Shown: positions 664 through 50,019 of the stretch, piece after piece
Layout of the letters: each line of letters opens with the position of its first letter
Numbering within the stretch: position 1 is the stretch's first letter
Virus record (IMG/VR): IMGVR_UViG_3300030012_003138
Span: 1 to 53,838 of that record
DNA: 53,838 bases
Reading direction: 5' to 3' (one strand)
Source of the DNA: a virus
Taxonomy: Duplodnaviria; Caudoviricetes
Notes under the pieces: model-generated
What the model was told of the DNA's origin: nothing
Database searches by the model: none
Seen by the model: only the letters and a program-made list of their open reading frames with translations
Position numbers and translations under genes: made by a program

Positions 664-936
664 ATGGACAAAAACGAAGAATCTCAGGAATTAGAAGCTA
701 AGAGTTTTGAATTTAACATTAACGACTTCGATCTGATTAGAAGAGCAGTCAACGCTTTGACCAATTTTGATAGTTGTGGAGGAAATAGACAACTGCTAGC
801 AAGATTTAACATCATAGGATCAAGCCTTGAAAGGCAGGGTCTTGATTGTGGTTTCTTACAAAAGCCTGATGAGGCACAAGAAGAGGAGCCTAAACAGGAA
901 TCCAGTGAGCCAGTCGAAGCAGAGGTAGTGCAATAA
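664..936 (+). CDS. Hypothetical protein downstream of tail fibre
   Basis: 90-aa ORF with an acidic tail, coupled to the next gene by a TAATG overlap. Confidence 0.6.
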   Translation: MDKNEESQELEAKSFEFNINDFDLIRRAVNALTNFDSCGGNRQLLARFNIIGSSLERQGLDCGFLQKPDEAQEEEPKQESSEPVEAEVVQ

Positions 937-1547
937 TGAAGTTTTATGTAGAGGTTGACAATGATGACCATATAGCTGGGATCACTAAGGCTAGGGAAGC
1001 ATATAATGCAGCCTTACCTCAGATTGATAACCCTGATTATGTGGAACCTGATCTAAGGGAAAAAATTGAAAACCCTGATTACGTGCCACCACAGGGTGAT
1101 CCACTAATTGAAAATCCTGACCATGTGCCAGCAAGAGAAGCTATAGGTGAGCCTCTCATAATGAATCCTAATTATGTACAGGCAATCGAAGCTGTAGGAC
1201 ACCCACAGATACCTAATCCTGATTATGATGAGGAAGATGAGGATTCTGAAGAGTTCATAGACAACCCTGATTACGTTCCTGCATCAGACGCTGTAGGGGA
1301 AGAGATGATGGCTAACCCTGATTATGTAGCAGCTACTGAGGCTGAAGGGGAGACAATGATTGAGAATCCCGATTATGTAGAAGCAGTTGGCGAACCTTTA
1401 ATTGATAACCCTGATTATACTGAAGGTACTCCAGACCTTCCAAAGATGATTGATGATGAAGGCTTTACAGAAGATAAAGACTACATAAAGTGGGTTATTG
1501 AGAAGGCTGCTGAGAGTTATGCCAAGGAATTTGGTATTATTGAATAA
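936..1547 (+). CDS. Acidic NPDY-repeat protein
   Basis: Nine I-x-N-P-[DN]-[YH] repeats between two helical segments. Confidence 0.8.
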   Translation: MKFYVEVDNDDHIAGITKAREAYNAALPQIDNPDYVEPDLREKIENPDYVPPQGDPLIENPDHVPAREAIGEPLIMNPNYVQAIEAVGHPQIPNPDYDEEDEDSEEFIDNPDYVPASDAVGEEMMANPDYVAATEAEGETMIENPDYVEAVGEPLIDNPDYTEGTPDLPKMIDDEGFTEDKDYIKWVIEKAAESYAKEFGIIE

Positions 1548-35716: not shown

Positions 35717-36025
35717 ATGCCAAAAAAAGTTGCCTTGCCTATCCCAATAGATAGGTGGTTCAAAGATGTTAAACGAATTGAAGAATTACGAGCGATCTTG
35801 GATTCTGAGGCTTTTCAAACGGCAGTCGCAATTCTCAAAGACACAGCAGGGCCAACTTTTGGATCAGTTGCTGGAGACGAGAAGATTAACAGCAACCGTC
35901 ACGCATGGTACGCAGGATATCGTGATGCTTTCAGTGATTTACATAAACTAACTAAATTACAAGCCGATAAACAACCAAACGTAACACCTGAAGAATGGAA
36001 TCACATACAGACACCGCAACAGTAG
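35717..36025 (+). CDS. Small protein between portal and scaffold
   Basis: Conserved syntenic position and a WYAGYRDAF helix. Confidence 0.6.
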   Translation: MPKKVALPIPIDRWFKDVKRIEELRAILDSEAFQTAVAILKDTAGPTFGSVAGDEKINSNRHAWYAGYRDAFSDLHKLTKLQADKQPNVTPEEWNHIQTPQQ

Positions 36026-37227
36026 AAGCACCTGAAGTAGAAGTAACTGAAGTAGATTCAACAGCTTCTGTTGAAAGTTTACCTCAAGAAACTACACAGG
36101 ATAGTTTTCTTGATGCTTTAGATGCTGCTTTGACTAATATGACAGATTCTCCTTTAGAGGAGGTTGCAACAGAAGAAACAAAAGAAGAGCCTAAAGAAGA
36201 AGAATTAAAACCAGAAATCGAGGATACAGAAGACCCTCCTTTGGCAGACAAAGAAGAAGTTGAAGAAGAGGCTAAAGAAAAACCAAATACAGATGATCCG
36301 ATAGAAGAACTATCAGAAGATCTTGGTGATGACTGGACACCTAAAGCAGCTAACAGGTTTAAACAGTTAAAAGACGAACTTAAAAGTAATAAATCAGAAC
36401 TCGACACTCTTAGACAAACTGTTAAAGAACAGTCTTATAAAATGAAAGAGTTGTCAGCTATTGCTGAAAACAAAGATGTAGATTCTTTAAAAGAAACTCT
36501 TAGGCAGTATGAGATTGAAAAATCTTTTAGTGATTTGGAAAACACAGCTCAGTATCAAGAAGCGGTAAGTGAACCTTTAAATAGGTTAATGGATAAAGCG
36601 TCTGTTATTGCTGAGAAGTACGACGCTGATTACGACAGGCTTGTTGACATTATCGCTTTAGATGATGCTGAACAGCAAGATGAAAAACTAGTTGAATTAT
36701 TACCTGAAGCTACTGACAGAGATAAATCAACTATCTATAGGATAATTGAAGACATTGATCCTATCATTGAAAGACGTAATGAGTTATTTGACAACGCTGA
36801 TGAAGCTTTAAAAGAAGCCCGTTACTTAGAGGAACAAAAACAACAAGCAGAGGTAGCTGAAAAAGCTGAGATACGTAAAAGTATAACTAGAAACGTAGTA
36901 AAAAGAGTTGGTGAAAAACTCCCTTTTCTTTCTGGAGTAGAAGGTTTAGATATGTCTTCTATAGAAGCAAAAGCTTCAGACCTCGATCCATCAGTGGTAC
37001 ATCCTGTAGATTTTGCTTATAATTCCGTAGCTGCTCAAATTTTACCTACTATTGTTCGTGAGTATTTATCATCTCGTGCTGAAGCTGATTTACTTATGAG
37101 CAAATTAGCTGAGTATGAAGACGCTGAACCTACTGTTTCTGGATCACCAAAATCAGATACTGCTTCTCAAAGGCCATCAGATTTATCATTTGAAGAGGCT
37201 ATTAGTGCAGCCTTGAGTGGGACGTAA
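35995..37227 (+). CDS. Capsid scaffolding protein
   Basis: Very acidic disordered N-terminus, A..RFKQL motif and coiled coils, between portal and capsid. Confidence 0.7.
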   Translation: MESHTDTATVEAPEVEVTEVDSTASVESLPQETTQDSFLDALDAALTNMTDSPLEEVATEETKEEPKEEELKPEIEDTEDPPLADKEEVEEEAKEKPNTDDPIEELSEDLGDDWTPKAANRFKQLKDELKSNKSELDTLRQTVKEQSYKMKELSAIAENKDVDSLKETLRQYEIEKSFSDLENTAQYQEAVSEPLNRLMDKASVIAEKYDADYDRLVDIIALDDAEQQDEKLVELLPEATDRDKSTIYRIIEDIDPIIERRNELFDNADEALKEARYLEEQKQQAEVAEKAEIRKSITRNVVKRVGEKLPFLSGVEGLDMSSIEAKASDLDPSVVHPVDFAYNSVAAQILPTIVREYLSSRAEADLLMSKLAEYEDAEPTVSGSPKSDTASQRPSDLSFEEAISAALSGT

Positions 37228-37241
37228 AAGTAGTTTATACT
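37213..37241 (+). promoter_or_regulatory. sigma70-like promoter, leaderless
   Basis: TTGAGT-17-TATACT, then 5 nt to the ATG at 37247. Confidence 0.7.
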
Positions 37242-37246
37242 AGCAT

Positions 37247-37540
37247 ATGGCTAGGGCAAAATTCAAACGATTACCTTCAGGAAAGATCCTATGGAGAGGT
37301 GAGCAGTTTGCTGGTTTTAATAAACCGAAGAAAGCTCCTGCGGGAAGTAAAAAGAAGTTTATTGTTCTTGGCAAGCAAGGGAATAAGATTAAAAAAGTAG
37401 GTTTTGGTCATAGAGATTATCAAGACTTTAGGCAACATAAAGATCCTAAAAGGCGTAAAAACTTTAGGGCTAGGCATAATTGTCAGACCGCAAAAGACAA
37501 AACAACCGCCCGTTATTGGGCATGTAGAAAACTTTGGTGA
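37247..37540 (+). CDS. Small basic protein (DUF5754-like)
   Basis: VGFG..DY.DF.QHKD.KRR.NFRARH.C.....TARYWAC..LW. Confidence 0.7.
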   Translation: MARAKFKRLPSGKILWRGEQFAGFNKPKKAPAGSKKKFIVLGKQGNKIKKVGFGHRDYQDFRQHKDPKRRKNFRARHNCQTAKDKTTARYWACRKLW

Positions 37541-37719
37541 TGGCTAAGAAAAAATCAACAGTTAATAAAGCAGGTAATTATACAAAGCCTACGATGCGTA
37601 AGCGATTGTTCCGTCAGATTCTGGCAGGTACTAAGGGGGGCAGAGCAGGTCAGTGGTCTGCACGTAAAGCTCAGTTACTTGCTATGATGTACAAAAAAAG
37701 AGGTGGGGGTTATAAGTAA
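37540..37719 (+). CDS. Small basic protein
   Basis: NYTKP.MRK......AG.KGG..GQWSARKAQ.LA..YK..GGGYK. Confidence 0.7.
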   Translation: MAKKKSTVNKAGNYTKPTMRKRLFRQILAGTKGGRAGQWSARKAQLLAMMYKKRGGGYK

Positions 37720-37997
37720 TGGCTTTGAAAAAATCACAGAAGTCCTTAAAAGATTGGACTAAACAAAAGTGGCGTACTAAGTCTGGTAAGAAGTCTTCTG
37801 AAACAGGGGAGCGTTACTTACCTGAAAGAGCTATTAAGATGTTATCTTCTGCAAAATACGCAGCAGGAACACGTAGAAAAAGAAAAGCTACAGCAGAGGG
37901 GAAACAAAACGCTAAGTATACAGAAGCGGAGAGAAAAGCATTTATCAGAGCAACTGGTAGAAAATACAAACCCAAAAAGAAAAAAAGTAAAAAATGA
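37719..37997 (+). CDS. Small basic protein (DUF5872-like)
   Basis: QKSLKDWTKQKWRTKSGK.S..TGERYLP. Confidence 0.7.
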   Translation: MALKKSQKSLKDWTKQKWRTKSGKKSSETGERYLPERAIKMLSSAKYAAGTRRKRKATAEGKQNAKYTEAERKAFIRATGRKYKPKKKKSKK

Positions 37998-38239
37998 AAG
38001 GTGTACCACACTATTTAAAAGACGGAACTCTTTATAAAGGAGAGTCACATAAAATGCCTAATGGTGAAGTCCACACGGGCAAAGAGCATAATGAAGACAG
38101 TGAGAAACTATTTCATTTTGATGACCTTAGTGACGAAGCAAAAGAGAAAGCAAAGAAGTCTAAAAAAGAAGATAAAAAAGGAACCGCAGTTGTTATCTCT
38201 TTTATGGACGCTGTAGAAAAAGGTATAAAGGAAAAATAG
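37994..38239 (+). CDS. His-rich small phage protein
   Basis: HY..DGT...G..HKMPNG..HTG..H...S..L.H..DLS. Confidence 0.65.
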   Translation: MKGVPHYLKDGTLYKGESHKMPNGEVHTGKEHNEDSEKLFHFDDLSDEAKEKAKKSKKEDKKGTAVVISFMDAVEKGIKEK

Positions 38240-38252
38240 GAGTAGTAGAGGA

Positions 38253-38441
38253 TTAATCCTCTACTACATCAAGACCAACACAGATTTTAGGTGGTAGTGG
38301 TGTAACCTGTGTTTCAAGATTAACCCTTACTGCTGGGTCTGTGAATGGAATTGGTAGACCTACTTTAGCGTTGGTTGTGTCGCAAGCGACGTTGGCGAGT
38401 GCTACAAAAGCTAGACCGAGTAGTACAATTATTTTCTTCAT
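38253..38441 (-). CDS. Small lipoprotein on the opposite strand
   Basis: Signal MKKIIVLLGLAFVALANVA|C. Own promoter TGGAAA-17-TAGATT, 5 nt from the ATG. Confidence 0.7.
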   Translation of the reverse strand: MKKIIVLLGLAFVALANVACDTTNAKVGLPIPFTDPAVRVNLETQVTPLPPKICVGLDVVED

Positions 38442-38509
38442 ATGTTAATCTAAGCATGGAGTCTAAAAATTTCCACTGTAAAAAATTCAAATAAGCTATA
38501 TATTAAAAG

Positions 38510-38638
38510 ATGCCTAATTACATGAATAAGTCAGACGGAAAAAAGACTAAGAAACAGATATTAAAGTCTTACCAAGGGAACGGTATGGGTGGTAGTACCA
38601 CACCTAGAAAGAAAGCTAAAAAACGTTATTATTCTTAA
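38510..38638 (+). CDS. 42-aa basic peptide (not in ORF track)
   Basis: MPNYMNKSDGKKTKKQILKSYQGNGMGGSTTPRKKAKKRYYS, with TATATT 5 nt upstream. Confidence 0.5.
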   Translation: MPNYMNKSDGKKTKKQILKSYQGNGMGGSTTPRKKAKKRYYS

Positions 38639-38720
38639 GGCTGATCTTAATTTCAGTACTAAGGTAGTACTATAAAATACCCTGTTGCATATATAAAAAA
38701 TAAGATTATTTTATATATGT

Positions 38721-38893
38721 TAACAACTCATACGGTTGCTCTAGCCATAAATAGTTCTAGTGGGAAGTTATCAATGGGCTGTGTTCCGTTCCATACTCAA
38801 TCTACTTGGTTGCTCTAGCCATAAATAGTTCTAGTTCAGTAGATTACATAAATATTTAATTAGATCGTCTCCAGAACGAAACAGGAGAGGTCT
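38721..38893 (+). ncRNA. Structured capsid-gene leader with a duplicated 28-nt motif
   Basis: GGTTGCTCTAGCCATAAATAGTTCTAGT at 38734 and 38808, each enclosed by a different closing stem. Extra hairpin at 38862-38893. Confidence 0.55.
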
Positions 38894-38929
38894 GTACTAC
38901 TATAACTTAACAATTAGAAAACAAATAAA

Positions 38930-40303
38930 ATGGCCTTTGGACCTCCAAACACTCTGTCAGCCCCCGCATCAGGATCGGCTGCGGATCAAACTATTAACAC
39001 AATATTGACCCAAGAAGCGGGTAGAATTGGTGCTGATATACATAAAGCAACTCTTCACACCAGCCCTTGGATTGATCTTATTAAACAATCTACATTCCCA
39101 GAAGGAATGGGTTATACACTCAACACTTTGATTTATGACCGTGCTCTCCCCGTGTCTCCTCTCGACGCAGATCTTGATGAATCTGCTGCTCTTGTAGGTA
39201 CTAACTGGAGTGCTCTAGGTACTACACAAGGATCAGCTTCTGCTGGTTTTATTGCTAACACAACTGAGTCTACTACAGCAGCACCAACAGGTGGAGATAA
39301 TGTTAACCACATTGACTTCTCTAAAGTGCTTAAAACTTACAGCCTTAGTAGAGCTGTCATTGAATCTCCACATATCAATGTAGAAGAGCTTCGTTATGCA
39401 GCCCACCGCACAGAGCAACTCCGTGCGATTATGGATTTGCTTAAAGAGTCCACTCGTTCTTCTTGGGAGAATCGTTATCGTCAACAGTACGATAAGGTAT
39501 GTAACAATGTTGTTTACGCTAAAACTGCTTCTTCTATCTTTGCTACTGGAGCTGAAGGTAAAGCAACACACTCTACTGACTCATCTGAGCTTTTAGATGT
39601 AGATGCTGCTGCTACTGCTGGTGGTGATGGTGGAACAGGTGATAATGTTGTAGATGCGACTGCAAACATCTCTAACGCTCTTTTGGATAAGATTTACTTC
39701 CAACTTGTGCGTAAAGGTGCTGGAAACAATGCACATGGAGTTGAGAATGGTAGACCAGTATTTACATTGGTTTGCTCATCAGAAGCATCTTATCAGTTGA
39801 TGACTGAGTCTGGATTCCGTGATGATGTACGTTACAACAATTCTAGAGTGAGTGAGCTTATTGCTCCTTTAGGTGTTGAGAAGTCTTTCAGAGGTTTCTA
39901 TCACTTGATTGATGACATGCTTCCACGTTTCAACGCAGCTCTAACTGGTGGAAACGACAACCTTGTTGAAGTACCTGTCTACGACGTAGACCACTCAAAC
40001 AAGAAAGTTGTAATGAACTCAGCTTATGATAGTGCTGCTATCGAAGTAGCTTACATCTTACACCAAGATGTAATGGAGTCCTTGATTCCTGCGCCTGTCA
40101 CTAATGTAAATGGTCTTTCATTTGATCCAGTCAGCTATAAAGGTGACTTCAAGTGGACTAACATTCCTGATATTGTGCGTAACCCAGATGGAAACATTGG
40201 TTTCTTCAGGGGTATCATGGCTTCAGCTTCCAAGCCTATTAAGACAGACTTTGGTTATGTGATTCTCTTCAAGAGAGATTCCGCTACACCTGCTGCTGTT
40301 TAA
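38930..40303 (+). CDS. Major capsid protein
   Basis: 457 aa, after the scaffold, with biased high-expression codons (AAC, TTC, CGT, GCT) and a strong terminator downstream. Confidence 0.8.
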   Translation: MAFGPPNTLSAPASGSAADQTINTILTQEAGRIGADIHKATLHTSPWIDLIKQSTFPEGMGYTLNTLIYDRALPVSPLDADLDESAALVGTNWSALGTTQGSASAGFIANTTESTTAAPTGGDNVNHIDFSKVLKTYSLSRAVIESPHINVEELRYAAHRTEQLRAIMDLLKESTRSSWENRYRQQYDKVCNNVVYAKTASSIFATGAEGKATHSTDSSELLDVDAAATAGGDGGTGDNVVDATANISNALLDKIYFQLVRKGAGNNAHGVENGRPVFTLVCSSEASYQLMTESGFRDDVRYNNSRVSELIAPLGVEKSFRGFYHLIDDMLPRFNAALTGGNDNLVEVPVYDVDHSNKKVVMNSAYDSAAIEVAYILHQDVMESLIPAPVTNVNGLSFDPVSYKGDFKWTNIPDIVRNPDGNIGFFRGIMASASKPIKTDFGYVILFKRDSATPAAV

Positions 40304-40307
40304 TTTA

Positions 40308-40393
40308 ATGTGGGGTTCTTAAAAGGAACCTTACATAAATACTTCACAATAACCTCGATCCTCTTGCAAAAATGGGGATCGGGGTTATTTTTT
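40308..40393 (+). terminator. Double hairpin / rho-independent terminator after the capsid gene
   Basis: ATGTGGGGTTC/GAACCTTACAT, then AATAACCTCGATCCTC/GGGGATCGGGGTTATT plus a T-run. Confidence 0.8.
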
Positions 40394-42229: not shown

Positions 42230-43543
42230 GTGCCTGTACAGAGAAATCAACCAAGCCCTCAAAGGCAGTCAGTATTAACATTTGTATCTCCAAATGTTCA
42301 AGATTTATTATTTTATGAGACTGTAGATAAACAACGGGTTGGTAAAACACCCCCTGTTTATGGGTCAGCACACCCAAACACTACTAAGTTCCCTAACCAC
42401 AAACTAGTTTATGTTAAACAGTTTGATGCCGAGGGGCAGTTATACCAATACTACTATGCTGCTTCTAGGTCTAGCCAAGATGAATATAACTTTGAATATT
42501 CTCAAGCTAGTTTAGGAAACTCTAAATTTAATACTGTAGTCAGGACTTATGTTATTCCTAGGTCTGATTTTAAAGAAGATGATGCATCTTTAGAGGCTGG
42601 TGATGCTATGCCCACTGAACCTTCTTCAGCTAACTTTACTGATAAAGGGTATATTCTAATGTCCCGCCAACAAAAAAGATTAAGAGATCCAGAATTAGAC
42701 GGGCATTTTATTGTTGAGCAAAGAGTTTATTTTATTAGGGAAGACATTGAAACCCTGAAGTGGGATGAGTTATCGGGTTCTAATTTAAAAACAACAGTTA
42801 GTTATTTTGCGTTGGGAGAGACTCCTACTGGAGCTTCTTCAAATATACAGACTTTAATTTCTGATGCTGATAATTCTTATTGGGGTACTGCTATAGAGTA
42901 TAGAGAAGATTCACCCTCTCAGGGAAACTTAAACAAAGCAGTCGCTTTTTATAAAGAAGGAAGACAGGTATCTTTAGATTGGTTTGAAGTTGTAAAGATA
43001 GAAACAATGGCTGGTACAACTACTGATGGAACAATAAACTCAGCTACTACTTTACTTATTGAAGAACTAAATACCTCAATTAATTTTACATTCCCACCAG
43101 TTTTACAAAGCATTTCATCTGTTGCTTGGGAAAAGCATGATGGTCAAGTTCAACATAATCCAGAGTATCATATGAATCCAGAAGGGTATAGTGGACCTTG
43201 TAGAGCTGTAATTAAAAAAGAATATAGGACAACAGAGTTTGATCTCGACGTTCCTAAAGCTATGCAGCCCCAGTCTTTTGCATTTTCTACTCCTTATATA
43301 AATATAAGAATACCCTCTTGTTTAATTGATGGTCCAGCGTTAGGTAGTGAAATTGGATTCACTACAGGAACTACTGACCCTGTATATAAATATACCGCAT
43401 ATATTAAAACATTACCTAAAACAGATCCACCAAATCTTAAAAAGATAGCTGAAACTGGGCTTAGAGCTAGAGTCATCCAACAAAAATCTAGGGGTGGTTA
43501 TATAAAAGAAACTACTACTGTATTCCCTCCGTCTTTTAATTAA
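42230..43543 (+). CDS. Putative tail structural protein
   Basis: Beta-rich 437 aa, coupled to the giant fibre gene. Confidence 0.55.
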   Translation: MPVQRNQPSPQRQSVLTFVSPNVQDLLFYETVDKQRVGKTPPVYGSAHPNTTKFPNHKLVYVKQFDAEGQLYQYYYAASRSSQDEYNFEYSQASLGNSKFNTVVRTYVIPRSDFKEDDASLEAGDAMPTEPSSANFTDKGYILMSRQQKRLRDPELDGHFIVEQRVYFIREDIETLKWDELSGSNLKTTVSYFALGETPTGASSNIQTLISDADNSYWGTAIEYREDSPSQGNLNKAVAFYKEGRQVSLDWFEVVKIETMAGTTTDGTINSATTLLIEELNTSINFTFPPVLQSISSVAWEKHDGQVQHNPEYHMNPEGYSGPCRAVIKKEYRTTEFDLDVPKAMQPQSFAFSTPYINIRIPSCLIDGPALGSEIGFTTGTTDPVYKYTAYIKTLPKTDPPNLKKIAETGLRARVIQQKSRGGYIKETTTVFPPSFN

Positions 43544-46500
43544 TGCCTGAACAATTTACAGATGGTAATATTGGAGCTTTCGGAGCTCCCATATCTCCTG
43601 CTGACAGGGAAGTAACTGAGTCTTCACTAAACAAAATCCCTGATGTGGGATTACAAGGGTATACCGACAGTGGGGCTTATAGTAGTAATTATCCTTCGGG
43701 AATGGTTGGGTCTACTCCACAAGACGAGATTCGTTATCGTCAGGAGCATGAGCCTTATAATTATCAGCCAGACGATGATCAATTTGTTTATATAACAAAA
43801 GCTTATTTATATGAGATACATCCCTTACTAAATGAAGAGGAATCAAAGCTAATAAAAAAGCACGAGCTAAGTCCTTTAAAAATAAAGTTAGATACAAAGA
43901 AAGGTTGTGTATATACACAATTTATGGTGGATCAACAAGGGAAGGTTATAGGTGAATATAATCTTTTAAAGACAGAAGAGGATGAACCTCCCGATTCAAC
44001 ACCATTTCAGTTATTGAATGCAGATGGTGACGATGAGCCTGATAAGTACGGTATATATAATGTTCTTATATTTAAATTCGCAGATGGAGTTATTTTAAGA
44101 AATAATTATGATTCTGATAAAGATGATCCAAGATCTGTAAGAGGGCATGGTGGTATAGAAGGGCATAGGGGACCACTTATATGGTCCCGTGGTTATAATA
44201 CTATAAACAATTTAGGTATTGGGGGTGGGATGATATATGAAGGATATAATCTTACTGAGGATAAAATAAATTTACGAACCCTAATGGGGCAAGGTCAGAT
44301 CAGTGTATCAACGGCTGGTGATCAAATAAATATCCGAGGAAACAGTAATAATAAAACTTGGCAAGCAGTTCCTGATGATAACGTAAGTTATAGCAATACT
44401 ACATTAGCTACATTTGCAGATGGATTATTGACTGGAACCCCAAACGAGTTAAAAGTTGTAGAAGTTGCTAAATCAACAGGTTCGGGAACTACAGTTAACA
44501 CTTTTGTTGATACAGACGATGTAACATTGAATGTTGATACTCTAACATCTACTTCTGTAAATTTACCAACAGGTAGTGGTATAGAGTTATCTACTGAGAA
44601 GTATACTCCTACAGCAGTAAGTACTGAAGGACCAATAACACAGAAGGCTAACGCTTTAGTTGAAGGGACGGATATTGACCTTGACGCTGTCGAAGTAACT
44701 TCTGTAGAGATGCTTCCTCCAAGTGGGTCAAGTTTAGAGCTAGAAACGTATGATTATAAGCCTACATCAGTTTCTACTGAAGGGCCAATAACGAAAGAGA
44801 CTGGCAGTCTTAAAGAAGGATCAAACATTGACCTGCAAGCTGTTAAACTACAAACGCAAGCAATAACTCCTCCAAGTGGGTCAAGTTTAGATTTAGAAAC
44901 TAATCAATATGCTACCGTAGATTTAGGGTTTAAAACGACGGGTATAGATTCTACTGTTTTAAAAGGAGGTGATAATTTAACTACAACAGCTACTGAACTA
45001 CGTTCAAAAAGTGTGCCTGTTCAAGATACGGGAGTTAAGGAATATACATCTAAAGCATTTCCTCCCCATACTCTAACGGCTACAGCAGGAACTTTAAAAG
45101 AAGAAGTGGGGGCGGGGAATGACGTTACTTTATCATCAGTTGAATTAAGTCCAACTTCTTTGTCTGGGATAACTTTAAGTCGTAAGACATACACCCCAAC
45201 ACAAGTTGGCACTAAGACAACAACTGAAACTTCTTTTTACACAGGAGGTAATCAATTAACAACAACACCTACACCCTTATCTGTAACACGATCACCTGTA
45301 TTAGAATTTGATACTAAAAAATATACTTCTAGGCAGTTAGAGCAACTATCATTACAAAAGAAGACTAATATTTTATCTAAATCAGCATCTACGGCAGAAA
45401 CTACTTTAGAAGCAACTGCGTTAAAAACTACTTCAATAACTCCTCCAAGTAGTACTCCACTATCTTTAGGGACTAAGACATATACTCCTAGAGCGTTATC
45501 TAAACAGACATTAACTAAAGAAACTACTGCTTTAAAAGGTGGTAGTGAGTTAGACACAACTGTTGCTACTTTAAGCACAAAAAAAGCAGACATTGTTTCT
45601 TCTACACCGAACACTTATAAAGCTAGGTCGTTAGATAAAACAACTTTATCCCCTCAGTCGAAAGCTTTACACGGAGGTAACCCCCTTACCTGTCATCCGA
45701 CAGATTTAAACACGGAGACTCTTGAAGCTCCCGAACTATCCGTCAAAACTTTTACTACTACTGAGTTAGGAACTGCTTCTTTATCAAAGCAAGATATGAC
45801 GACTAAAGCGTTTAGTCGTGTTGAAGAAACTTTTAATGAAAATTTAAAGCAACAATTAAAGGCTTTAAAAGGTGGTACTGATTATATCTGTACTCCTACA
45901 GATATGACGACTAAAGCGTTTAGTCGTGTTGAAGAATCTCTTGATGAAAATTTAAAGCAACAATCAGGTGCTTTAAAAGGCGGTACTAATTACACATGCA
46001 CCCCTACGGCTATGACGACTAGAGCGTTTAGTCCTGTTGAAGAATCTCTTAATGAACATTTACAACAACAATCGGGTACTTTAAAAGGTGGTGTTGATTA
46101 CACATGTAATCATACAGATTTTAAAGTTAAGACGTTTAGTCGTGTTGAAGAATCTTTTAATGAAAATTTAAAGCAACAATCAGGTGCTTTAAAAGGTGGT
46201 GCTGATTACACATGCACTCCTACGTCTATGACGACTAAGTCGTTCACGACTCAAGCTAATGCCTTACAAGGTGGTAGTAATTTAGATTTAGTATATAGAG
46301 AGGTCTACCTTACAGATAATCAAACGCCTGTTTGGGTCTTAGGACCAAAGAATGTTCCATCAAATACTTCTGCTACGGTAACTGCTGTTGTTGGAGTAGA
46401 GAGATATACAGGAATAAAGAGGTCGGATGGCAACACTGCTACTAATTTCCATTTATACCAATCTGGGACTGATCCAGTTACTGGTAATAATAAAGTATTA

Positions 46501-49500
46501 ACTACAGATAGTGTTAGTACGGATACAGTAACACTTAGAAAAGACATCGGCACATATGTAGGAGTCAGAAATCTTTCCGATGCTTCTGTTTATTTATATA
46601 GTACAACAGGGGCTTCGGACACTAGAGTATACATAAAACCACCCGACAGTAGTCCTGTTGAGAACAGTCATCATTTATATTATGCTGCTAGTGAGGTTTC
46701 TGATACTAAAGTACTAACTACAGATTCTAGTGATACTACAGTAACACTTAAAAAAGACATTTCGGATTATGTAGGAGTCAAAAATCTTTCCGCTCCTGAT
46801 GTTTATTTTTATAGTACAACAGGAGCTACAGACACTAGAGTATACCTAAGTCCACCCGACAGCAATACCACTCAAAATTTATACTTTGCTGCTAGTCCAG
46901 TTACTGGTAATAATAAAGTATTAACTGTAGATAGTGTTGATACAGATGATGTAACACTTAGACAAGACATTGGTACATACACAGGTGTTACAAATCTTTC
47001 CGCTGCTTCTGTTTATTTATATAGTACAACAGGGGCTTCGGACACTAGATTATATCTAAGCCCACCTGCTAGTGAGACTGATAGTCCTTACAATTTATAT
47101 TTTTCTACGGATGCAGTAACTAGTTCTAAAGTATTAACTACAACTGACTCTAGCACAGATGATGTAACACTTAGACAAGACATTGATGAATACACAGGTG
47201 TTACAAATCTTTCCGCTACTGATGTTTATTTAAATACTACAACAACCCCTACAGACACTAGAGTATACCTAAGTCCACCCGACAGTAATACTACTCAAAA
47301 TTTATATTTTTCTGCGGATGAAGTAACTAGTTCTAAAGTATTAACTACAACTGACTCTAGCACAGATGATGTACTATTTTATACTGCTGAAAGCACAGGA
47401 AAACGATTTTTAGAGGCTGATGCTGATGACAGCAACGATGATACAACTAATGTATACTGTACTAATAATGCTACACAAAGCAGAAATTTTTTAAGTAACA
47501 CTACTAATTCTAGTAAAACCACGTATCACGTATACACAAATGCGGATTCAGTATCAGGACAGAAATTCTTAAAAACCGACTCAGATAATACAGACGAAGT
47601 TTTAAGAACTGGTATGCAAGAATTTATTGCCATTAAGGGAATATCTTCTGATGTTTCATTGTACCAAGCTCCTCCACCACAAGCAAATTCATCAGATACT
47701 TTCTTAGAAACTGCATCTGCCTCTGCTGCGGATACTTTTTTATATTCAACCTCAGATGATACTCCAAGAAGATTATTGGCTAAATCAGGTACAGATTCAG
47801 ATACTACAATTCAGTTATATAATGCGGGTACGGGCGATACAGTTGTTGAAACAAAGGTTTTAGAATTAGATTCAAGTGCTACGGGTGATAAAAAATTAAC
47901 GGTTGGTGCTACATCATTCGATGCAGTGACTGGAATCCCACAAACTGATGATTCCGTTGAGCTTTACAAAGCTCCTGTTCCATCAGCAGATTCAACAGAC
48001 ACGTTCTTAGAAACTTCAGAGTCAACTGACCAACATCTTTATTTTTCATCGGGAGCATCGACACATAGTGTTATAACTAGTTCAGGTACTGCTATAAACG
48101 TTGTACACACTGTTGATAGTAGTTCAGGAGCTGCTGTAACTTTTTCAGACACAAAATTTGTAAAGATAAAAGCAGGGGATGATTGGGCAGGGGACGAAAA
48201 ATCTTTCATGCACACAATCGACGACTTTGACGGGGTAACTGCCACAGTAGGAGATGGAGTTAATGTTTATAAAGCTGTTGATGAAGATGATAATCCATCC
48301 CACAGATTTTTAGAAACAAACGACAGTACGGGAACTGAGTCACATATTTACGCTACTACGTTAGCAGCTACTGATACTAGATTTTTAACTACAGGAGATT
48401 CTGCTAGTGACCTCTTTTTATATTCCACGGCTAATAATGATAATACCACAAAGTTCTTAACAGTACCTGATAGTGTACAAGGACAGAAAATTTTAAGATC
48501 TGGTATGGCTTCTTCGAATGCTGTTACAGGTATTCCAAACGGGACTAGGTTATATTTTACAGATACTGATGAACCTTCTGATGCAAGATTCTTAAAAACA
48601 ACTCATACAGATAATACAGACAATACACATATCCTATATGTTTCAGATAGTACTGATGCTAGGACATTCTTAACTAGTTCAGGAAGTGACATAGGTATTT
48701 TAACTTCTGATTCTGTATCAGGAGTATCAGCAGCCAATTATGTAAAAGCTAATAACGACTCATTATCTTCTGGTAAAGTATTCAAACACACTATTGGTAC
48801 CTACACAGGGCTTTCTTCTAATGATAATGGAAATGTTATTGTATATGAAGCACCTGATTCAACTACACGAAACTTTTTACAAACAGGAGAAACCGCAGGG
48901 AATAGTCATCGTGTTTATTCTACAGACACCTCAACAACTAGCACTAGATTTTTAAGCACTTCAGAAGATGATTCTTCACTTACCTCACTTAATTTATATT
49001 CTACAGCTTCTCCTGATACTACTACAAAGTTTTTGAAAGTATCTGATAGTGAATCAGGAAACAAAATTTTAAAGCATGGCATAGACAATTTTAATGCTGT
49101 TACAGGTATTCCAAACGGAACTAATTTATACCACGCAGGAAGTGCTTCTACCCACCATTTCTTAAAATCTCCTACAGCTTTATCAGACCATCATGTTTAT
49201 TTTTCTGATACTGCTAGTGACTCTAGCAACAAAATGCCATTTGTAACAAGTTCAGGTAGTAGTATAAATATTGTAAAATCTTCTGATGATTCTAATACTG
49301 GTGCTTTCTCACTAACAAGGTTCTTAAAAACAACAGGAGATAACGTGGCTGCCCTTGATAGTGTTTCTAAAACTTTTAAGCATTCGTTTGGGACTTATAC
49401 TGGAATTAACGGGGACCAACTTTCAAATGCCAGTAACATTTACGTATATACCACAAGTGCAGCTAGTTCTAATAGTTCGGAAAAGTTCGTAAAGACTACG

Positions 49501-50019
49501 GATACAGGTGATAAGCACGTATTTATTTCTGCCAATAGCACCACCAGAAACTTTATAACTAGTACAGGTAGTGCAGTAAATGTTTTAACTGCGGGTAGTA
49601 TGAGCAATACTTCTACCGCTAAATTAGTAAAAACAGCAAACACTAACGTCGATGCCCTTGATAGTTCTAAAACATTCCAACATACATTTGATACTTATAC
49701 TGGTATGACAGGACTTTCGGGTACTAGTGATATCCGTTTGTATTCTACAGTTGGTGCTGATACTACAAAGTTTGTAAAGACTGACGCTAATCACAACACC
49801 ACAAAATTCTTGTATGTTTCTGACGCTAATAACCCTAGAACCTTCATAACTAGTACAGGATCTTCTAATACTAATGTTCTTACAAGTTCTAGTGACGTAA
49901 ATGTGTTAACAACAAATAATGTTGATCCTTCTTCAATCACACTAGTTAAGTCTGTAAATACCACACCTTCAACATTACAGACGGTTTCTGACTCCGTAAA
50001 AGTATTGAAAGCCCCTTAA
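43543..50019 (+). CDS. Giant T/S-rich fibre/spike protein with mirrored repeat architecture (2158 aa)
   Basis: Two sets of internal repeats in reverse order around a centre at about 46290-46350. Confidence 0.8.
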   Translation: MPEQFTDGNIGAFGAPISPADREVTESSLNKIPDVGLQGYTDSGAYSSNYPSGMVGSTPQDEIRYRQEHEPYNYQPDDDQFVYITKAYLYEIHPLLNEEESKLIKKHELSPLKIKLDTKKGCVYTQFMVDQQGKVIGEYNLLKTEEDEPPDSTPFQLLNADGDDEPDKYGIYNVLIFKFADGVILRNNYDSDKDDPRSVRGHGGIEGHRGPLIWSRGYNTINNLGIGGGMIYEGYNLTEDKINLRTLMGQGQISVSTAGDQINIRGNSNNKTWQAVPDDNVSYSNTTLATFADGLLTGTPNELKVVEVAKSTGSGTTVNTFVDTDDVTLNVDTLTSTSVNLPTGSGIELSTEKYTPTAVSTEGPITQKANALVEGTDIDLDAVEVTSVEMLPPSGSSLELETYDYKPTSVSTEGPITKETGSLKEGSNIDLQAVKLQTQAITPPSGSSLDLETNQYATVDLGFKTTGIDSTVLKGGDNLTTTATELRSKSVPVQDTGVKEYTSKAFPPHTLTATAGTLKEEVGAGNDVTLSSVELSPTSLSGITLSRKTYTPTQVGTKTTTETSFYTGGNQLTTTPTPLSVTRSPVLEFDTKKYTSRQLEQLSLQKKTNILSKSASTAETTLEATALKTTSITPPSSTPLSLGTKTYTPRALSKQTLTKETTALKGGSELDTTVATLSTKKADIVSSTPNTYKARSLDKTTLSPQSKALHGGNPLTCHPTDLNTETLEAPELSVKTFTTTELGTASLSKQDMTTKAFSRVEETFNENLKQQLKALKGGTDYICTPTDMTTKAFSRVEESLDENLKQQSGALKGGTNYTCTPTAMTTRAFSPVEESLNEHLQQQSGTLKGGVDYTCNHTDFKVKTFSRVEESFNENLKQQSGALKGGADYTCTPTSMTTKSFTTQANALQGGSNLDLVYREVYLTDNQTPVWVLGPKNVPSNTSATVTAVVGVERYTGIKRSDGNTATNFHLYQSGTDPVTGNNKVLTTDSVSTDTVTLRKDIGTYVGVRNLSDASVYLYSTTGASDTRVYIKPPDSSPVENSHHLYYAASEVSDTKVLTTDSSDTTVTLKKDISDYVGVKNLSAPDVYFYSTTGATDTRVYLSPPDSNTTQNLYFAASPVTGNNKVLTVDSVDTDDVTLRQDIGTYTGVTNLSAASVYLYSTTGASDTRLYLSPPASETDSPYNLYFSTDAVTSSKVLTTTDSSTDDVTLRQDIDEYTGVTNLSATDVYLNTTTTPTDTRVYLSPPDSNTTQNLYFSADEVTSSKVLTTTDSSTDDVLFYTAESTGKRFLEADADDSNDDTTNVYCTNNATQSRNFLSNTTNSSKTTYHVYTNADSVSGQKFLKTDSDNTDEVLRTGMQEFIAIKGISSDVSLYQAPPPQANSSDTFLETASASAADTFLYSTSDDTPRRLLAKSGTDSDTTIQLYNAGTGDTVVETKVLELDSSATGDKKLTVGATSFDAVTGIPQTDDSVELYKAPVPSADSTDTFLETSESTDQHLYFSSGASTHSVITSSGTAINVVHTVDSSSGAAVTFSDTKFVKIKAGDDWAGDEKSFMHTIDDFDGVTATVGDGVNVYKAVDEDDNPSHRFLETNDSTGTESHIYATTLAATDTRFLTTGDSASDLFLYSTANNDNTTKFLTVPDSVQGQKILRSGMASSNAVTGIPNGTRLYFTDTDEPSDARFLKTTHTDNTDNTHILYVSDSTDARTFLTSSGSDIGILTSDSVSGVSAANYVKANNDSLSSGKVFKHTIGTYTGLSSNDNGNVIVYEAPDSTTRNFLQTGETAGNSHRVYSTDTSTTSTRFLSTSEDDSSLTSLNLYSTASPDTTTKFLKVSDSESGNKILKHGIDNFNAVTGIPNGTNLYHAGSASTHHFLKSPTALSDHHVYFSDTASDSSNKMPFVTSSGSSINIVKSSDDSNTGAFSLTRFLKTTGDNVAALDSVSKTFKHSFGTYTGINGDQLSNASNIYVYTTSAASSNSSEKFVKTTDTGDKHVFISANSTTRNFITSTGSAVNVLTAGSMSNTSTAKLVKTANTNVDALDSSKTFQHTFDTYTGMTGLSGTSDIRLYSTVGADTTKFVKTDANHNTTKFLYVSDANNPRTFITSTGSSNTNVLTSSSDVNVLTTNNVDPSSITLVKSVNTTPSTLQTVSDSVKVLKAP
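45792..46240 (+). repeat. 108-bp (36-aa) coding tandem repeat x4
   Basis: TTTAGTC(G/C)TGTTGAAGAA at 45811, 45919, 46027, 46135. Confidence 0.9.
46473..47373 (+). repeat. 210-213-bp (70-71-aa) coding tandem repeat x4
   Basis: GACACTAGA at 46618, 46831, 47041, 47254. Confidence 0.9.

What the first reader, a model, noticed from the sequence alone, without database searches (positions are those of the whole stretch)
38721..38893. Tandem stem-enclosed 28-nt motif in the major capsid leader: candidate new cis-regulatory RNA
Seen: two identical 28-mers, GGTTGCTCTAGCCATAAATAGTTCTAGT (38734, 38808). Copy 2 is closed by AATCTACT/AGTAGATT (38799-38806/38838-38845). Copy 1 is closed by an unrelated stem (TAAC..CTCAT/GTGGG..GTTA). 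Inside, GGTT/AGCC can pair, and CTAG/CTAG offers an alternative pairing. A third hairpin follows, and TTGCAT-16-TATTTT lies just upstream. Inference: an invariant core with interchangeable closing stems is typical of an aptamer or protein-binding RNA, possibly feedback control of capsid translation. It has only partial resemblance to pistol (UAAAUAG after P1) and preQ1-I motifs.
Basis: partly seen in the sequence, partly recalled or inferred. Interest (0 to 1): 0.75.

Follow-up and report, generated by a model that had tools for sequence, protein, structure and literature searches.

The report
Tandem pseudoknot RNA before capsid gene
Two copies of a small, very strongly conserved folded RNA module sit at the start of the major capsid gene's messenger RNA in a large family of uncultured aquatic phages; it matches no described RNA family, and what it does is still unknown.

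Summary
The two identical 28-mers (38734-38761, 38808-38835) are the cores of two RNA modules in the leader of an HK97-fold major capsid gene (ATG 38930).

Of 118 unique leaders fetched through the capsid protein alone, 88 carry two modules, 27 one and 2 none. In motif-first searches, all 83 loci with enough sequence downstream have the capsid gene 60-300 nt downstream.

Each module has three helices:
- A closing helix of free sequence, with strong covariation.
- S1, GGY/RCC.
- S2, CUA pairing with the UAG before UUC. All three S2 pairs show compensatory changes.

S1 and S2 form an H-type pseudoknot. GG, GCU, CC and UUC never change. A sigma-70-like promoter ends 4-14 nt before module 1.

Nothing in Rfam 15 matches, and no searched paper holds the core.

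The function is inferred, not shown. My best guess is a cis-acting 5'-terminal leader whose invariant pseudoknots are recognised by a conserved partner that sets capsid mRNA stability or output. Riboswitch, ribozyme, put-like antitermination and nuclease-blocking readings remain open.

Its pistol and preQ1-I resemblances are likeness of shape, not membership.

The parts
38685..38712 (+). Promoter-like site: -35 TTGCAT (38685-38690), 16-nt spacer, -10 TATTTT (38707-38712). The inferred transcript start is about 38718-38721.
   Evidence: Sequence. Below the threshold of the scan. At the same place, 72 of 107 unique upstream sequences of relatives match the sigma-70 consensus in 9 or more of 12 positions (TTGACA exact in 50), against 22 of 535 control windows.
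38721..38770 (+). Module 1. Closing helix P0 38721-38731 / 38760-38770 with an internal loop. Pseudoknot core 38734-38746 (S1a GGU 38734-36, L1 UGCU 38737-40, S2a CUA 38741-43, S1b GCC 38744-46). Loop L3 AUAAA 38747-51. S2b UAG 38752-54. Invariant UUC 38755-57.
   Evidence: Covariance model hit at 38728-38765, E 2.6e-08. P0 and S2 covariation in relatives. P0 of this copy is drawn by eye and not predicted by the minimum-energy fold.
38773..38790 (+). Small hairpin between the modules (stem 38773-77 / 38786-90, loop GCUGUGUU).
   Evidence: Fold (z -0.77, not significant alone). A like element (GGGCUnnGUUCC type) lies between the modules in 40 of 74 unique two-module leaders. Stems differ between relatives (by eye).
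38799..38845 (+). Module 2. P0 38799-38806 / 38838-38845. Core 38808-38820 (S1a 38808-10, L1 38811-14, S2a 38815-17, S1b 38818-20). L3 38821-25. S2b UAG 38826-28. UUC 38829-31.
   Evidence: I14, D1. Covariance model hit at 38802-38842, E 8.7e-09. Covariation as for module 1.
38862..38893 (+). Third hairpin (stem 38862-72 / 38884-93 with one bulge, 11-nt loop), not followed by a U run.
   Evidence: -11.9 kcal/mol, z -2.59. Its 3' arm motif (GGRD..GGYYY) is found between module 2 and the ATG in 60 of 74 unique leaders.
38894..38929 (+). A/U-rich stretch before the start codon, with no hairpin predicted within it and no Shine-Dalgarno-like motif.
   Evidence: no hairpin inside it in the folds. 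0 of 74 unique leaders have an SD-like motif at -20 to -5. SD-like motifs are rare in the whole genome and in two relatives.
38930..40303 (+). Major capsid protein gene (457 aa, HK97 fold).
   Evidence: No Pfam or PHROG hit. AlphaFold2 on a 56-sequence alignment gives mean pLDDT 81.6. The best Foldseek PDB matches are capsid proteins of phages DEV and N4 (E 1.8e-11 and 3.3e-11), with HK97 Head II at rank 40. RNA-library contigs cover parts of the gene.
40308..40393 (+). Two strong hairpins after the capsid stop codon. The second (40348-40389) runs into a U run, so it is terminator-like.
   Evidence: -39.3 kcal/mol, z -8.34, 0 of 200 shuffles. Not listed by the simple scan. A strict scan finds a hairpin plus T run within 150 nt of the stop in 12 of 37 relatives, against 6 of 111 control segments.

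Best explanation
Shown by comparison: each 28-mer is the core of an RNA module of about 45-55 nt, read on the + strand. A closing helix P0 of arbitrary sequence encloses an H-type pseudoknot.
- Helix S1 is G1 G2 Y3 paired with R11 C12 C13.
- Helix S2 is nucleotides 8-10 (CUA) paired with the three nucleotides just before an invariant UUC (UAG).
- Loop L1 holds an invariant GCU.
- Loop L3 is A/U-rich and free in length (5-10 nt here, up to 25 nt with its own hairpin in one clade).

Two modules stand in tandem, then a further hairpin and an A/U-rich stretch with no hairpin of its own, then the start codon of the HK97-fold major capsid gene.

Inferred: a sigma-70-type promoter ends 4-14 nt before module 1, so the modules would be the first thing transcribed and would sit at the extreme 5' end of a capsid mRNA that ends at a terminator-like hairpin after the gene.

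My committed reading (inference): the modules act in cis and after transcription. Their invariant pseudoknot nucleotides are a docking site for a highly conserved partner, either a host component or a very conserved phage protein. Binding at the 5' terminus sets the lifetime, and through it the output, of the capsid mRNA, rather than blocking the ribosome directly. The modules lie 72-190 nt from the ATG, too far to occlude it directly. In the window no + strand terminator-like site lies between them and the ATG; relatives were not scanned for one.

I am about 0.9 sure of the structural part and about 0.35 sure of the mechanism.
For: Recurrence and context:
- Of 118 unique leaders fetched through the capsid protein only, 88 have two modules, 27 one, 2 none and 1 a spurious third (loci).
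- Of 91 loci fetched by the motif, 83 have the capsid gene 60-300 nt downstream on the same strand. The other 8 are cut off less than 400 nt after the motif.
- The core occurs nowhere else in the window or in 5 relatives' records.

Invariance: 136 of 139 cores in 80 motif-blind metagenome loci are the exact 13-mer, although capsid identity to the window falls to 57%.

Closing helix P0:
- For 105 unique flank pairs, duplex energy averages -9.34 kcal/mol, against -3.99 for 10,018 mismatched partners. 68% against 6.5% reach -8 kcal/mol.
- On the model-fitted alignment of 138 hits (76 distinct), 85.6% of cells pair and all 6 pairs change on both sides. There are 192 such cells against 60.5 +/- 9.3 in shuffles (0 of 500), and slid controls pair at 15-38%.

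Helix S2:
- 18 of 23 distinct module types pair 3 of 3, against a mean of 6.5 and a maximum of 12 for shuffled partners (0 of 2000).
- On alignment A3, 95.2% of cells pair against 74% shuffled, with 19 double-sided cells against 5.0 and slid controls at 6-33%.
- The helices seen are CUA/UAG, CCG/CGG, CCA/UGG, CUG/CAG, UCG/CGA, UUA/UGA, UUG/CAA, CUC/GAG and CUU/AAG.
- In L258 the two modules carry CUC/GAG and CUU/AAG, so pairing is within a module.

Helix S1: pair 3-11 occurs as U-G, C-G and U-A, never C-A.

Strand: G-U pairs make up 101 of 918 P0 pairs, the canonical S1 holds a U-G, and the + strand pairs better than its complement (-9.34 against -8.14).

Promoter.

No + strand terminator-like site lies in 38200-39100. 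The distance from UUC to the ATG is 72 minimum, 102 median, 190 maximum. Terminator-like hairpins follow the gene.
Against: - No transcript end is known, and no RNA read or contig was seen over the modules.
- Single-sequence folding energies are no better than shuffles.
- S1 rests on one varying pair, and GCU and UUC never vary, so their roles cannot be tested by covariation.
- The alignment was fitted to the structure.
- In the L025-type clade the closing helix is short and the energy test is weak: -7.45 against -5.46, n = 19.
- That clade has one module plus a different pseudoknot, and two relatives (L023, L241) have none. Two copies are therefore not obligatory, and capsid expression is possible without the module.
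- No partner has been identified.
- Strict invariance of about 10 unpaired or untestable nucleotides is at least as typical of ligand pockets and ribozyme cores as of protein sites.
Confidence: 0.45

Rival explanations
1. Riboswitch: each pseudoknot is a small aptamer for a metabolite or ion, two in tandem for a sharper response, tuning capsid synthesis to the state of the infected cell.
For: A small H-type pseudoknot with an A/U-rich L3 and about 10 invariant nucleotides is typical of the smallest aptamers (recalled knowledge of preQ1-I, SAM-II, fluoride and guanidine-III classes). Tandem copies are usual. L3 tolerates a hairpin insertion while the core stays fixed.
Against: No expression platform was found. 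There is no + strand terminator-like site in 38200-39100. The modules lie 72-190 nt from the ATG, and no conserved alternative pairing with the start region was seen by eye in the two leaders compared. No Rfam riboswitch model matches. The gene context gives no hint of a ligand.
Confidence: 0.15
2. Self-cleaving ribozyme or processing signal: the modules cut themselves, or direct a host RNase to cut. This removes the 5' leader and leaves an mRNA that begins near the third hairpin.
For: Size, a closing helix plus pseudoknot, and a handful of invariant nucleotides resemble small self-cleaving ribozymes, which are common in phage metagenomes (recalled). A hairpin (38862-38893) would then sit at the new 5' end.
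Against: No known ribozyme model matches. No cleavage site can be named and no processed end was observed. Nothing in the data requires cleavage.
Confidence: 0.12
3. Processive antitermination RNA of the HK022 put type: the nascent modules bind the RNA polymerase that made them and let it read through the terminator-like hairpin after the capsid gene into the downstream structural genes.
For: The position is right behind the promoter. There are two structured elements. Extreme conservation would fit a target as conserved as RNA polymerase. A terminator-like hairpin follows the capsid gene and + strand genes continue after it.
Against: There is one site per genome. The put elements, as I recall them, are two plain stem-loops without a pseudoknot. 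The terminator after the capsid gene is equally explained by a need for excess capsid protein.
Confidence: 0.1
4. Passive nuclease block with no partner: compact 5'-terminal pseudoknots shield the capsid mRNA from 5'-end-dependent RNase E or 5'-3' RNase J, in the manner of 5' stabiliser hairpins or the tandem exonuclease-resistant RNAs of RNA viruses.
For: Module 1 is predicted to start within a few nucleotides of the transcript start. The copies are tandem. The L025-type clade replaces module 2 by another pseudoknot, which suggests that a fold matters more than a second identical site.
Against: A mere roadblock would not need GCU and UUC to be invariant across phages whose capsid proteins are about half identical.
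Confidence: 0.1
5. DNA-level element (operator, hairpin promoter for a phage polymerase, recombination or packaging site), mini-CRISPR array, or a chance duplication.
For: The repeats are direct repeats of 28 nt, a CRISPR-like length. The genome has two giant ORFs of unknown function, and its capsid is closest in fold to N4-like phages, whose virion polymerase uses DNA hairpin promoters (recalled).
Against: The pairing needs G-U, so it is strand-specific. A pseudoknot with compensatory changes makes no sense for duplex DNA. In relatives the two copies differ in L3 and in their flanks, unlike the repeats of an array. The orientation relative to the capsid gene is fixed in 83 of 83 testable loci. 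Chance is excluded.
Confidence: 0.03

Closest known systems
preQ1-I riboswitch aptamer
   Same: A very small H-type pseudoknot with a 3-pair second helix, an A-rich third loop and a few invariant nucleotides. It can occur in tandem (recalled knowledge).
   Different: No match to any Rfam model, even at E up to 10. Here a separate closing helix P0 encloses the knot. Nothing, or 1-2 nt, lies between S2 and S1. The conserved loop letters are GCU and UUC. The gene is a phage capsid gene, not queuosine metabolism. No expression platform was found.
Pistol self-cleaving ribozyme
   Same: A hairpin whose loop pairs with a downstream strand across an A-rich linker, about 50 nt long, with about 10 invariant nucleotides, known from phage-rich metagenomes (recalled). 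The window's AUAAAUAG linker looks alike.
   Different: No covariance-model match. The linker is variable in relatives: ATTAAT, TTTGAA, ACAAG, GTTCAATTT and others. I see no counterpart of pistol's further helices, and an outer closing helix is present instead. Cleavage is untested.
Phage T4 gene 32 mRNA leader pseudoknot (autogenous translational operator)
   Same: A 5'-proximal H-type pseudoknot, followed by an unstructured A/U-rich stretch, in the leader of a highly expressed phage gene (T4 features recalled; the review PMC3014915 was seen only in the search listing, and PMC10690425, read in passages, says Rfam has no model of it).
   Different: One knot in T4, two here. The regulated gene is a capsid protein, not a single-strand-binding protein. 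There is no sequence likeness that I can test, and the binding partner here is unknown.
HK022 put antitermination RNA
   Same: Two structured RNA elements directly behind a promoter, acting on the transcript's own polymerase (recalled). Here too the modules follow the promoter and a terminator-like hairpin lies downstream.
   Different: As I recall it, put has no pseudoknot and occurs behind two promoters. Here there is one site per genome. Function is untested.
Tandem exonuclease-resistant RNAs (xrRNA) of flaviviruses and plant RNA viruses
   Same: Tandem, pseudoknotted modules of strongly conserved sequence with variable helices (recalled).
   Different: Those lie in 3' regions of eukaryotic RNA viruses and stop Xrn1. 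Here the modules are at the 5' end of a bacterial phage mRNA. Nuclease resistance is untested.
Candidate structured RNAs predicted from IMG/VR (PMC10690425)
   Same: The same data source and the same kind of object. That paper reports 8,495 candidates from IMG/VR, five of them typically upstream of one major capsid family (passages read).
   Different: Their 'upstream' class is within 25 nt of the start codon, whereas these modules lie 72 nt or more away.

Membership tests
Any Rfam 15 family (including preQ1, pistol, twister, hammerhead, known phage motifs) | Covariance-model score at or above the family's gathering score | tested here: not met
   0 matches in the whole window at gathering. 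In 38450-39000 at E up to 10 there are only two weak minus-strand hits, snoZ266 at 18.1 bits against 43 and mir-276 at 13.2 against 62.
preQ1-I riboswitch | H-type pseudoknot with an A-rich 3' loop | tested here: met
   S1 and S2 cross, and L3 is A/U-rich. This is likeness of shape only.
preQ1-I riboswitch | Association with queuosine or preQ1 genes, and an expression platform overlapping the aptamer | tested here: not met
   The downstream gene is an HK97-fold capsid protein. No terminator-like site lies in 38200-39100 on the + strand, and the modules are 72 nt or more from the ATG.
Pistol ribozyme | Further helices after the pseudoknot, and a conserved cleavage junction (recalled definition) | tested here: not met
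   After S2b come UUC, 2-10 nt and the 3' strand of P0. There is no extra conserved hairpin inside the module. Cleavage itself is not testable here.
tRNA / tmRNA / tRNA-like | Cloverleaf recognised by ARAGORN | tested here: not met
   0 genes in the window.
CRISPR (mini-)array | Repeats identical along their whole length within an array, spacers of about 30-40 nt, any structure inside the repeat | tested here: not met
   In relatives the two copies of one phage differ in L3 (for example ACAAG against GTATAAG in L047). The pairing flanks lie outside the repeat and differ between copies. The gap in the window is 46 nt.
Duplex-DNA protein site (operator, promoter element) | Conservation explained by sequence alone, no need for strand-specific pairing | tested here: not met
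   Compensatory changes occur in P0 and S2. G-U pairs make up 101 of 918 P0 pairs, and the canonical S1 holds a U-G.
Cis-regulatory 5' leader RNA | Lies between the transcript start and the start codon of a fixed gene, on the coding strand | tested here: inconclusive
   The gene association and strand are fixed in 83 of 83 testable loci, and a promoter-like site lies upstream. No transcript 5' end was observed.
HK022 put-type antiterminator | Nascent RNA makes its own polymerase resistant to downstream terminators | not testable with these tools
   Only the layout is compatible: promoter, modules, gene, terminator-like hairpin.
Exonuclease-resistant RNA | Halts a 5'-3' exonuclease at a defined point | not testable with these tools

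The most novel reading that the evidence does not exclude
The module is a new class of catalytic or ligand-sensing RNA: a self-cleaving ribozyme or a minimal pseudoknot aptamer. Alternatively it is cut off the mRNA and works in trans as a stable small RNA in head morphogenesis, as the phi29 packaging RNA does. Either way an abundant family of aquatic phages would control its most abundant protein with it. The evidence fits all of these: about 10 invariant nucleotides around a covarying pseudoknot, tandem copies, no expression platform, and no known family.
Probability: 0.25. Interest if true: 0.9.

Novelty: new variant of a known kind. Interest (0 to 1): 0.7.

Why it matters
Structured 5' leaders are a known kind of element. 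This one is a new, sequence-unrelated family with unusually clean evidence: a pseudoknot proven by compensatory changes at every pair of one helix, closing helices that vary freely, and near-total invariance of the unpaired core across phages whose capsid proteins have diverged to about half identity.

It is tied to a single gene, the major capsid protein, in a widespread uncultured phage family.

How tailed phages set the very high output and the timing of capsid protein when they rely on a host-type promoter is poorly known outside a few models. A compact module of about 50 nt that can be made in vitro gives a direct handle on that question. It can be probed for ligand binding, self-cleavage, nuclease resistance or protein partners.

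If it proves to be a stabiliser or an insulator, it could also be useful as a part for expression constructs.

Tried and rejected
RNA evidence. Contigs of three RNA-library runs of one study cover the capsid gene from 38868, 38950 and 38980 onward. None covers 38721-38845, while a DNA run of the same sample as one of them does. Depth is about 3-7 and these are contigs, so this shows neither a downstream start nor processing. I draw nothing from it.

Contig ends. Of the 20 upstream-truncated metagenome contigs listed, 6 start inside a module and 5 more start 11-15 nt before a core. This looks like assembly breaking at a shared repeat, not like RNA ends.

Thermodynamics. Single-sequence folds are not better than shuffles.

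Phage collection searches:
- blastn of the leader found no match.
- tblastn of the capsid protein found no match.
- tblastn of the 741-aa protein found no match.

First AlphaFold run with 14 sequences: pLDDT 38.5, unusable. A profile of A1 against PDB sequences found nothing meaningful. Pfam on A1 and A6 members gave no capsid family.

Bacterial genome scan. There were 16 hits. Five are two-copy hits on short MAG contigs (3-29 kb); the 4 of these that were scanned carry the capsid gene downstream, so they look like phage contigs. Eleven are single hits, 5 of them in Methylophaga. I estimate about 39 chance hits for this pattern in 596 Gb. No Rfam family overlaps the motif in the 7 single-hit loci I checked. 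I treat the single hits as chance.

MAFFT alignments A2 and A3 misplace the variable linkers. For that reason S1 and P0 were not counted on them, and only the S2 columns of A3 were used.

Script errors:
- crashed.
- let truncated loci through. One of its 23 types (L194_273) lies inside the gene and one (L246_607) lies in the other pseudoknot motif.

Ideas rejected:
- A NusB/NusE boxA-like reading of the GCUCU stretch, because nucleotides 8-10 are base-paired and covary.
- A CUAG kissing dimer between modules, because L258 shows pairing within a module.
- A T-loop reading of UUCUA, because a UUCAG variant occurs in 35 units.
- A special SD-independent start for the capsid gene, because the whole genomes lack SD motifs.
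- An alternative pairing of module 2's 3' strand with 38893-38902, because it is not conserved in L047 (by eye).

Giant ORFs: no Pfam, PHROG or PDB sequence match.

Supplements of PMC10690425 could not be read.
Full report
WHAT IS THERE

The window is one IMG/VR virus record of 53,838 bases, estimated 87% complete.

The two 28-mers are exact, at 38734-38761 and 38808-38835. No other copy exists in the window with up to 3 mismatches, and none of 100 shuffles gave two.

Copy 2 is enclosed by an 8-pair perfect inverted repeat (I14). Copy 1's enclosing stem can be drawn by eye but is not the minimum-energy fold. A third hairpin at 38862-38893 is real (z -2.59).

Single-sequence energies of the whole leader and of each copy are not better than shuffles. 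The case therefore rests on comparison with relatives.

THE GENE

ORF 38930-40303 has no Pfam or PHROG hit.
- A profile search found 541 relatives.
- A 56-sequence alignment gave an AlphaFold2 model with mean pLDDT 81.6.
- Foldseek places the model among HK97-fold capsid proteins. The best matches are the N4-like phages DEV and N4 (E 1.8e-11 and 3.3e-11), with HK97 Head II itself at rank 40.
- An Atlas look-up had already pointed to capsid families as a lead.
- The gene upstream at 35995-37227 ends like the gene that directly precedes the promoter in relatives. I take it to be scaffold-like (inference).

'Major capsid leader' is therefore right.

RECURRENCE

Retrieval through the capsid protein alone, blind to the motif, gave:
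- 38 IMG/VR loci.
- 58 IMG/VR loci around a distant member.

Among the 118 unique 330-nt leaders, 88 have two modules, 27 one, 2 none (L023, L241) and 1 a spurious third regex hit.

In the 80 metagenome loci, 67 have two modules. The 13 with fewer are all cut within 200 nt upstream of the match. 136 of 139 cores there are the exact 13-mer GGTTGCTCTAGCC.

Retrieval by the motif gave 86 IMG/VR stretches, and 5 two-copy MAG contigs among the 16 genome hits. Of the 91 motif-first loci scanned (4 of those 5 MAG contigs among them), 83 have the capsid gene 60-300 nt downstream on the same strand, and the other 8 end less than 400 nt after the motif.

The core occurs only there:
- In the window (model hits with E 8.7e-09 and 2.6e-08, the next best 2.3).
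- In five relatives' records.

It is therefore not a general promoter or a dispersed repeat.

STRUCTURE

Closing helix P0. An alignment-free test on 105 unique flank pairs gives -9.34 kcal/mol for true partners against -3.99 for 10,018 mismatched ones.

A covariance model built from six equal-length modules found 138 hits in the 80 motif-blind loci, all on the capsid strand. On that alignment all six P0 pairs change on both sides. 85.6% of cells pair, with 192 double-sided cells against 60.5 +/- 9.3 in shuffles and 15-38% pairing when the partner is slid. That alignment is fitted to the model, but the alignment-free test agrees with it.

Pseudoknot. The core is nearly invariant in the window's clade, but more distant relatives vary, and they vary in step. 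Nucleotides 8-10 pair with the three nucleotides before the invariant UUC. The helices seen are CUA/UAG, CCG/CGG, CCA/UGG, CUG/CAG, UCG/CGA, UUA/UGA, UUG/CAA, CUC/GAG and CUU/AAG.
- 18 of 23 distinct types pair fully, against a mean of 6.5 and a maximum of 12 for shuffled partners (0 of 2000). Two of the 23 are false regex hits.
- The true exceptions are a one-base deletion (L255 type), one mismatch (second module of L029) and the most distant L251.
- On alignment A3, 95.2% of cells pair against 74% shuffled, with 19 double-sided cells and slid controls at 6-33%.
- L258 carries CUC/GAG in module 1 and CUU/AAG in module 2, so the helix forms within a module.

S1 (G1 G2 Y3 with R11 C12 C13) crosses S2. 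Its only variable pair is seen as U-G, C-G and U-A, once U-U, never C-A. This support is weaker.

Together they make an H-type pseudoknot. L1 ends in an invariant GCU, 0-2 nt lie between S2 and S1, and L3 is A/U-rich, 5-10 nt long in the window's clade. In the L025-type clade L3 grows to 15-25 nt and holds its own hairpin.

I also note, as pure inference, that GCU and UUC face each other if S2 is continued (a G-C pair beyond two pyrimidine mismatches). That would give the usual geometry of a one- or two-nucleotide L1 over a six-step helix.

Strand. G-U pairs are frequent in P0 (101 of 918). The canonical S1 has a U-G, and the complement pairs less well.

SETTING

A sigma-70-like site precedes module 1. 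72 of 107 unique upstream sequences score 9 or more of 12 (TTGACA exact in 50), against 22 of 535 control windows. The -10 ends mostly 4-14 nt before the first paired base of P0. The window's own site (TTGCAT, 16 nt, TATTTT) is weaker.

If used, transcripts begin at the foot of module 1 (inference).

Downstream of module 2 come the third hairpin (its arm motif is in 60 of 74 unique leaders) and an A/U-rich stretch. The UUC of module 2 is 72-190 nt from the ATG (median 102), and no leader has an SD-like motif (0 of 74). The whole genomes barely use SD motifs either, so that is a trait of the phage family, not of this gene.

No + strand terminator-like site lies in 38200-39100. After the capsid stop come two strong hairpins, the second running into a U run (z -8.34). 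A strict scan finds the like in 12 of 37 relatives against 6 of 111 controls.

The unit thus looks like a self-contained, highly expressed cassette: promoter, structured leader, capsid gene, terminator.

WHAT IT IS NOT

- No Rfam 15 family and no tRNA.
- Not a CRISPR-like array, because in relatives the copies differ in L3 and flanks.
- Not a duplex-DNA site, because of strand-specific compensatory pairing.
- The 13-mer appears in no searched paper.

A catalogue of 8,495 candidate structured RNAs from IMG/VR exists (PMC10690425, passages read) and may contain it unnamed. Its 'upstream' class is within 25 nt of the start codon, which this motif is not.

HOW IT MOST LIKELY WORKS

Shown: a conserved, strand-specific, pseudoknotted module, usually in two copies, tied to the capsid gene.

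Inferred: it is RNA at the 5' end of the capsid mRNA.

The modules lie far from the ATG. In the window no + strand terminator-like site lies between them and the ATG; relatives were not scanned for one. I therefore favour action at the 5' terminus over a classical switch. The invariant nucleotides would be a docking site for a very conserved partner that sets mRNA lifetime and output.

I hold this at about 0.35. The fold and the cis-RNA nature I hold at about 0.9.

Rivals are a riboswitch (0.15), a ribozyme or processing signal (0.12), put-like antitermination (0.10), a passive nuclease block (0.10) and a DNA-level element or artefact (0.03).

The L025-type clade has one module plus a different pseudoknot, and two relatives have none. 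This shows that two identical copies are not obligatory.

VERDICT

The interpretation as a new cis-acting RNA is supported in substance, and its internal pairing model is corrected to a pseudoknot. The function is open.

It is a new family within the known kind 'structured 5' leader RNA'. It has evidence good enough for an Rfam entry and for bench work.

Noticed in passing
window 38688-38698 / 38709-38719; L223-L250 leaders: An 11-nt perfect inverted repeat spans the promoter-like site of the window (I6). In the L025-type clade, long inverted repeats of different sequence in different phages flank the TTGACA (for example in L226, L240, L246). This could be an RNA hairpin in read-through transcripts or a DNA feature at the promoter.
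   Followed up: no
L223-L250 (for example L226, about 120-60 nt before the ATG): The L025-type clade has, in place of module 2, another conserved element: a hairpin GAAGC...GCUUC whose loop holds GGCCUAUGCGCC, plus a loop-to-downstream pairing that covaries (GUCGC/GCGAC, GUCGUU/AACGAC, GCCGCU/AGCGGC, GUUGC/GCAAC). That would be a second candidate pseudoknot motif (by eye).
   Followed up: partly
window 38773-38790 and 38862-38893: Two further conserved hairpins lie in the leader. A mini-hairpin with a CUGnGU-type loop lies between the modules in 40 of 74 unique leaders. A long hairpin with a conserved 3' arm lies before the A/U-rich start region in 60 of 74.
   Followed up: partly
window 38894-38929 and whole genome; G004, G005: There are no Shine-Dalgarno-like motifs before the capsid gene in any of 74 unique leaders. 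They are rare before all long ORFs of three genomes of 38, 46 and 56% G+C. AACTT/ACTTAA-type words recur in the last 60 nt before the ATG in 51 of 74 leaders. The host probably starts translation without SD pairing.
   Followed up: partly
window 37240-38640: About 1.7 kb of small ORFs lies between the scaffold-like gene and the capsid promoter. It includes a DUF5754 protein at 37247-37540, a phrog_14910 protein at 37719-37997 and a 42-aa basic ORF at 38510-38638. In most relatives the scaffold-like gene ends just before the promoter instead.
   Followed up: no
window 18400-25533 and 43543-50019: Two giant ORFs (2377 and 2158 aa) have no Pfam or PDB sequence match; PHROGs gave only one weak hit to a family of unknown function for the 2158-aa ORF. 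With a capsid closest in fold to N4-like phages, a virion RNA polymerase is one thing to look for. This was not tested.
   Followed up: partly
L152, L160, L165, L168-L171, L176, L177, L203, L204: Many short metagenome contigs begin inside or within 15 nt of a module. The shared invariant core probably breaks assemblies of mixed related phages.
   Followed up: partly
L130, L132, L133, L134, L140: Two-copy hits lie on short contigs binned into MAGs labelled Acidimicrobiaceae, Opitutae (two), Blastopirellula and Verrucomicrobiales. This is either mis-binned phage DNA or a faint host hint towards Planctomycetes and Verrucomicrobia.
   Followed up: no
window 936-1547: A 203-aa ORF has a Pfam Calreticulin-family match above the curated cut-off (37.6 bits against 25, E 1.7e-09, residues 139-181), which is odd for a phage.
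   Followed up: no
window 40308-40393: Two very stable hairpins lie right after the capsid stop codon (z -8.34). The second has a U run, and similar CCCGAUCC...GGAUCGGG hairpins occur in relatives.
   Followed up: partly
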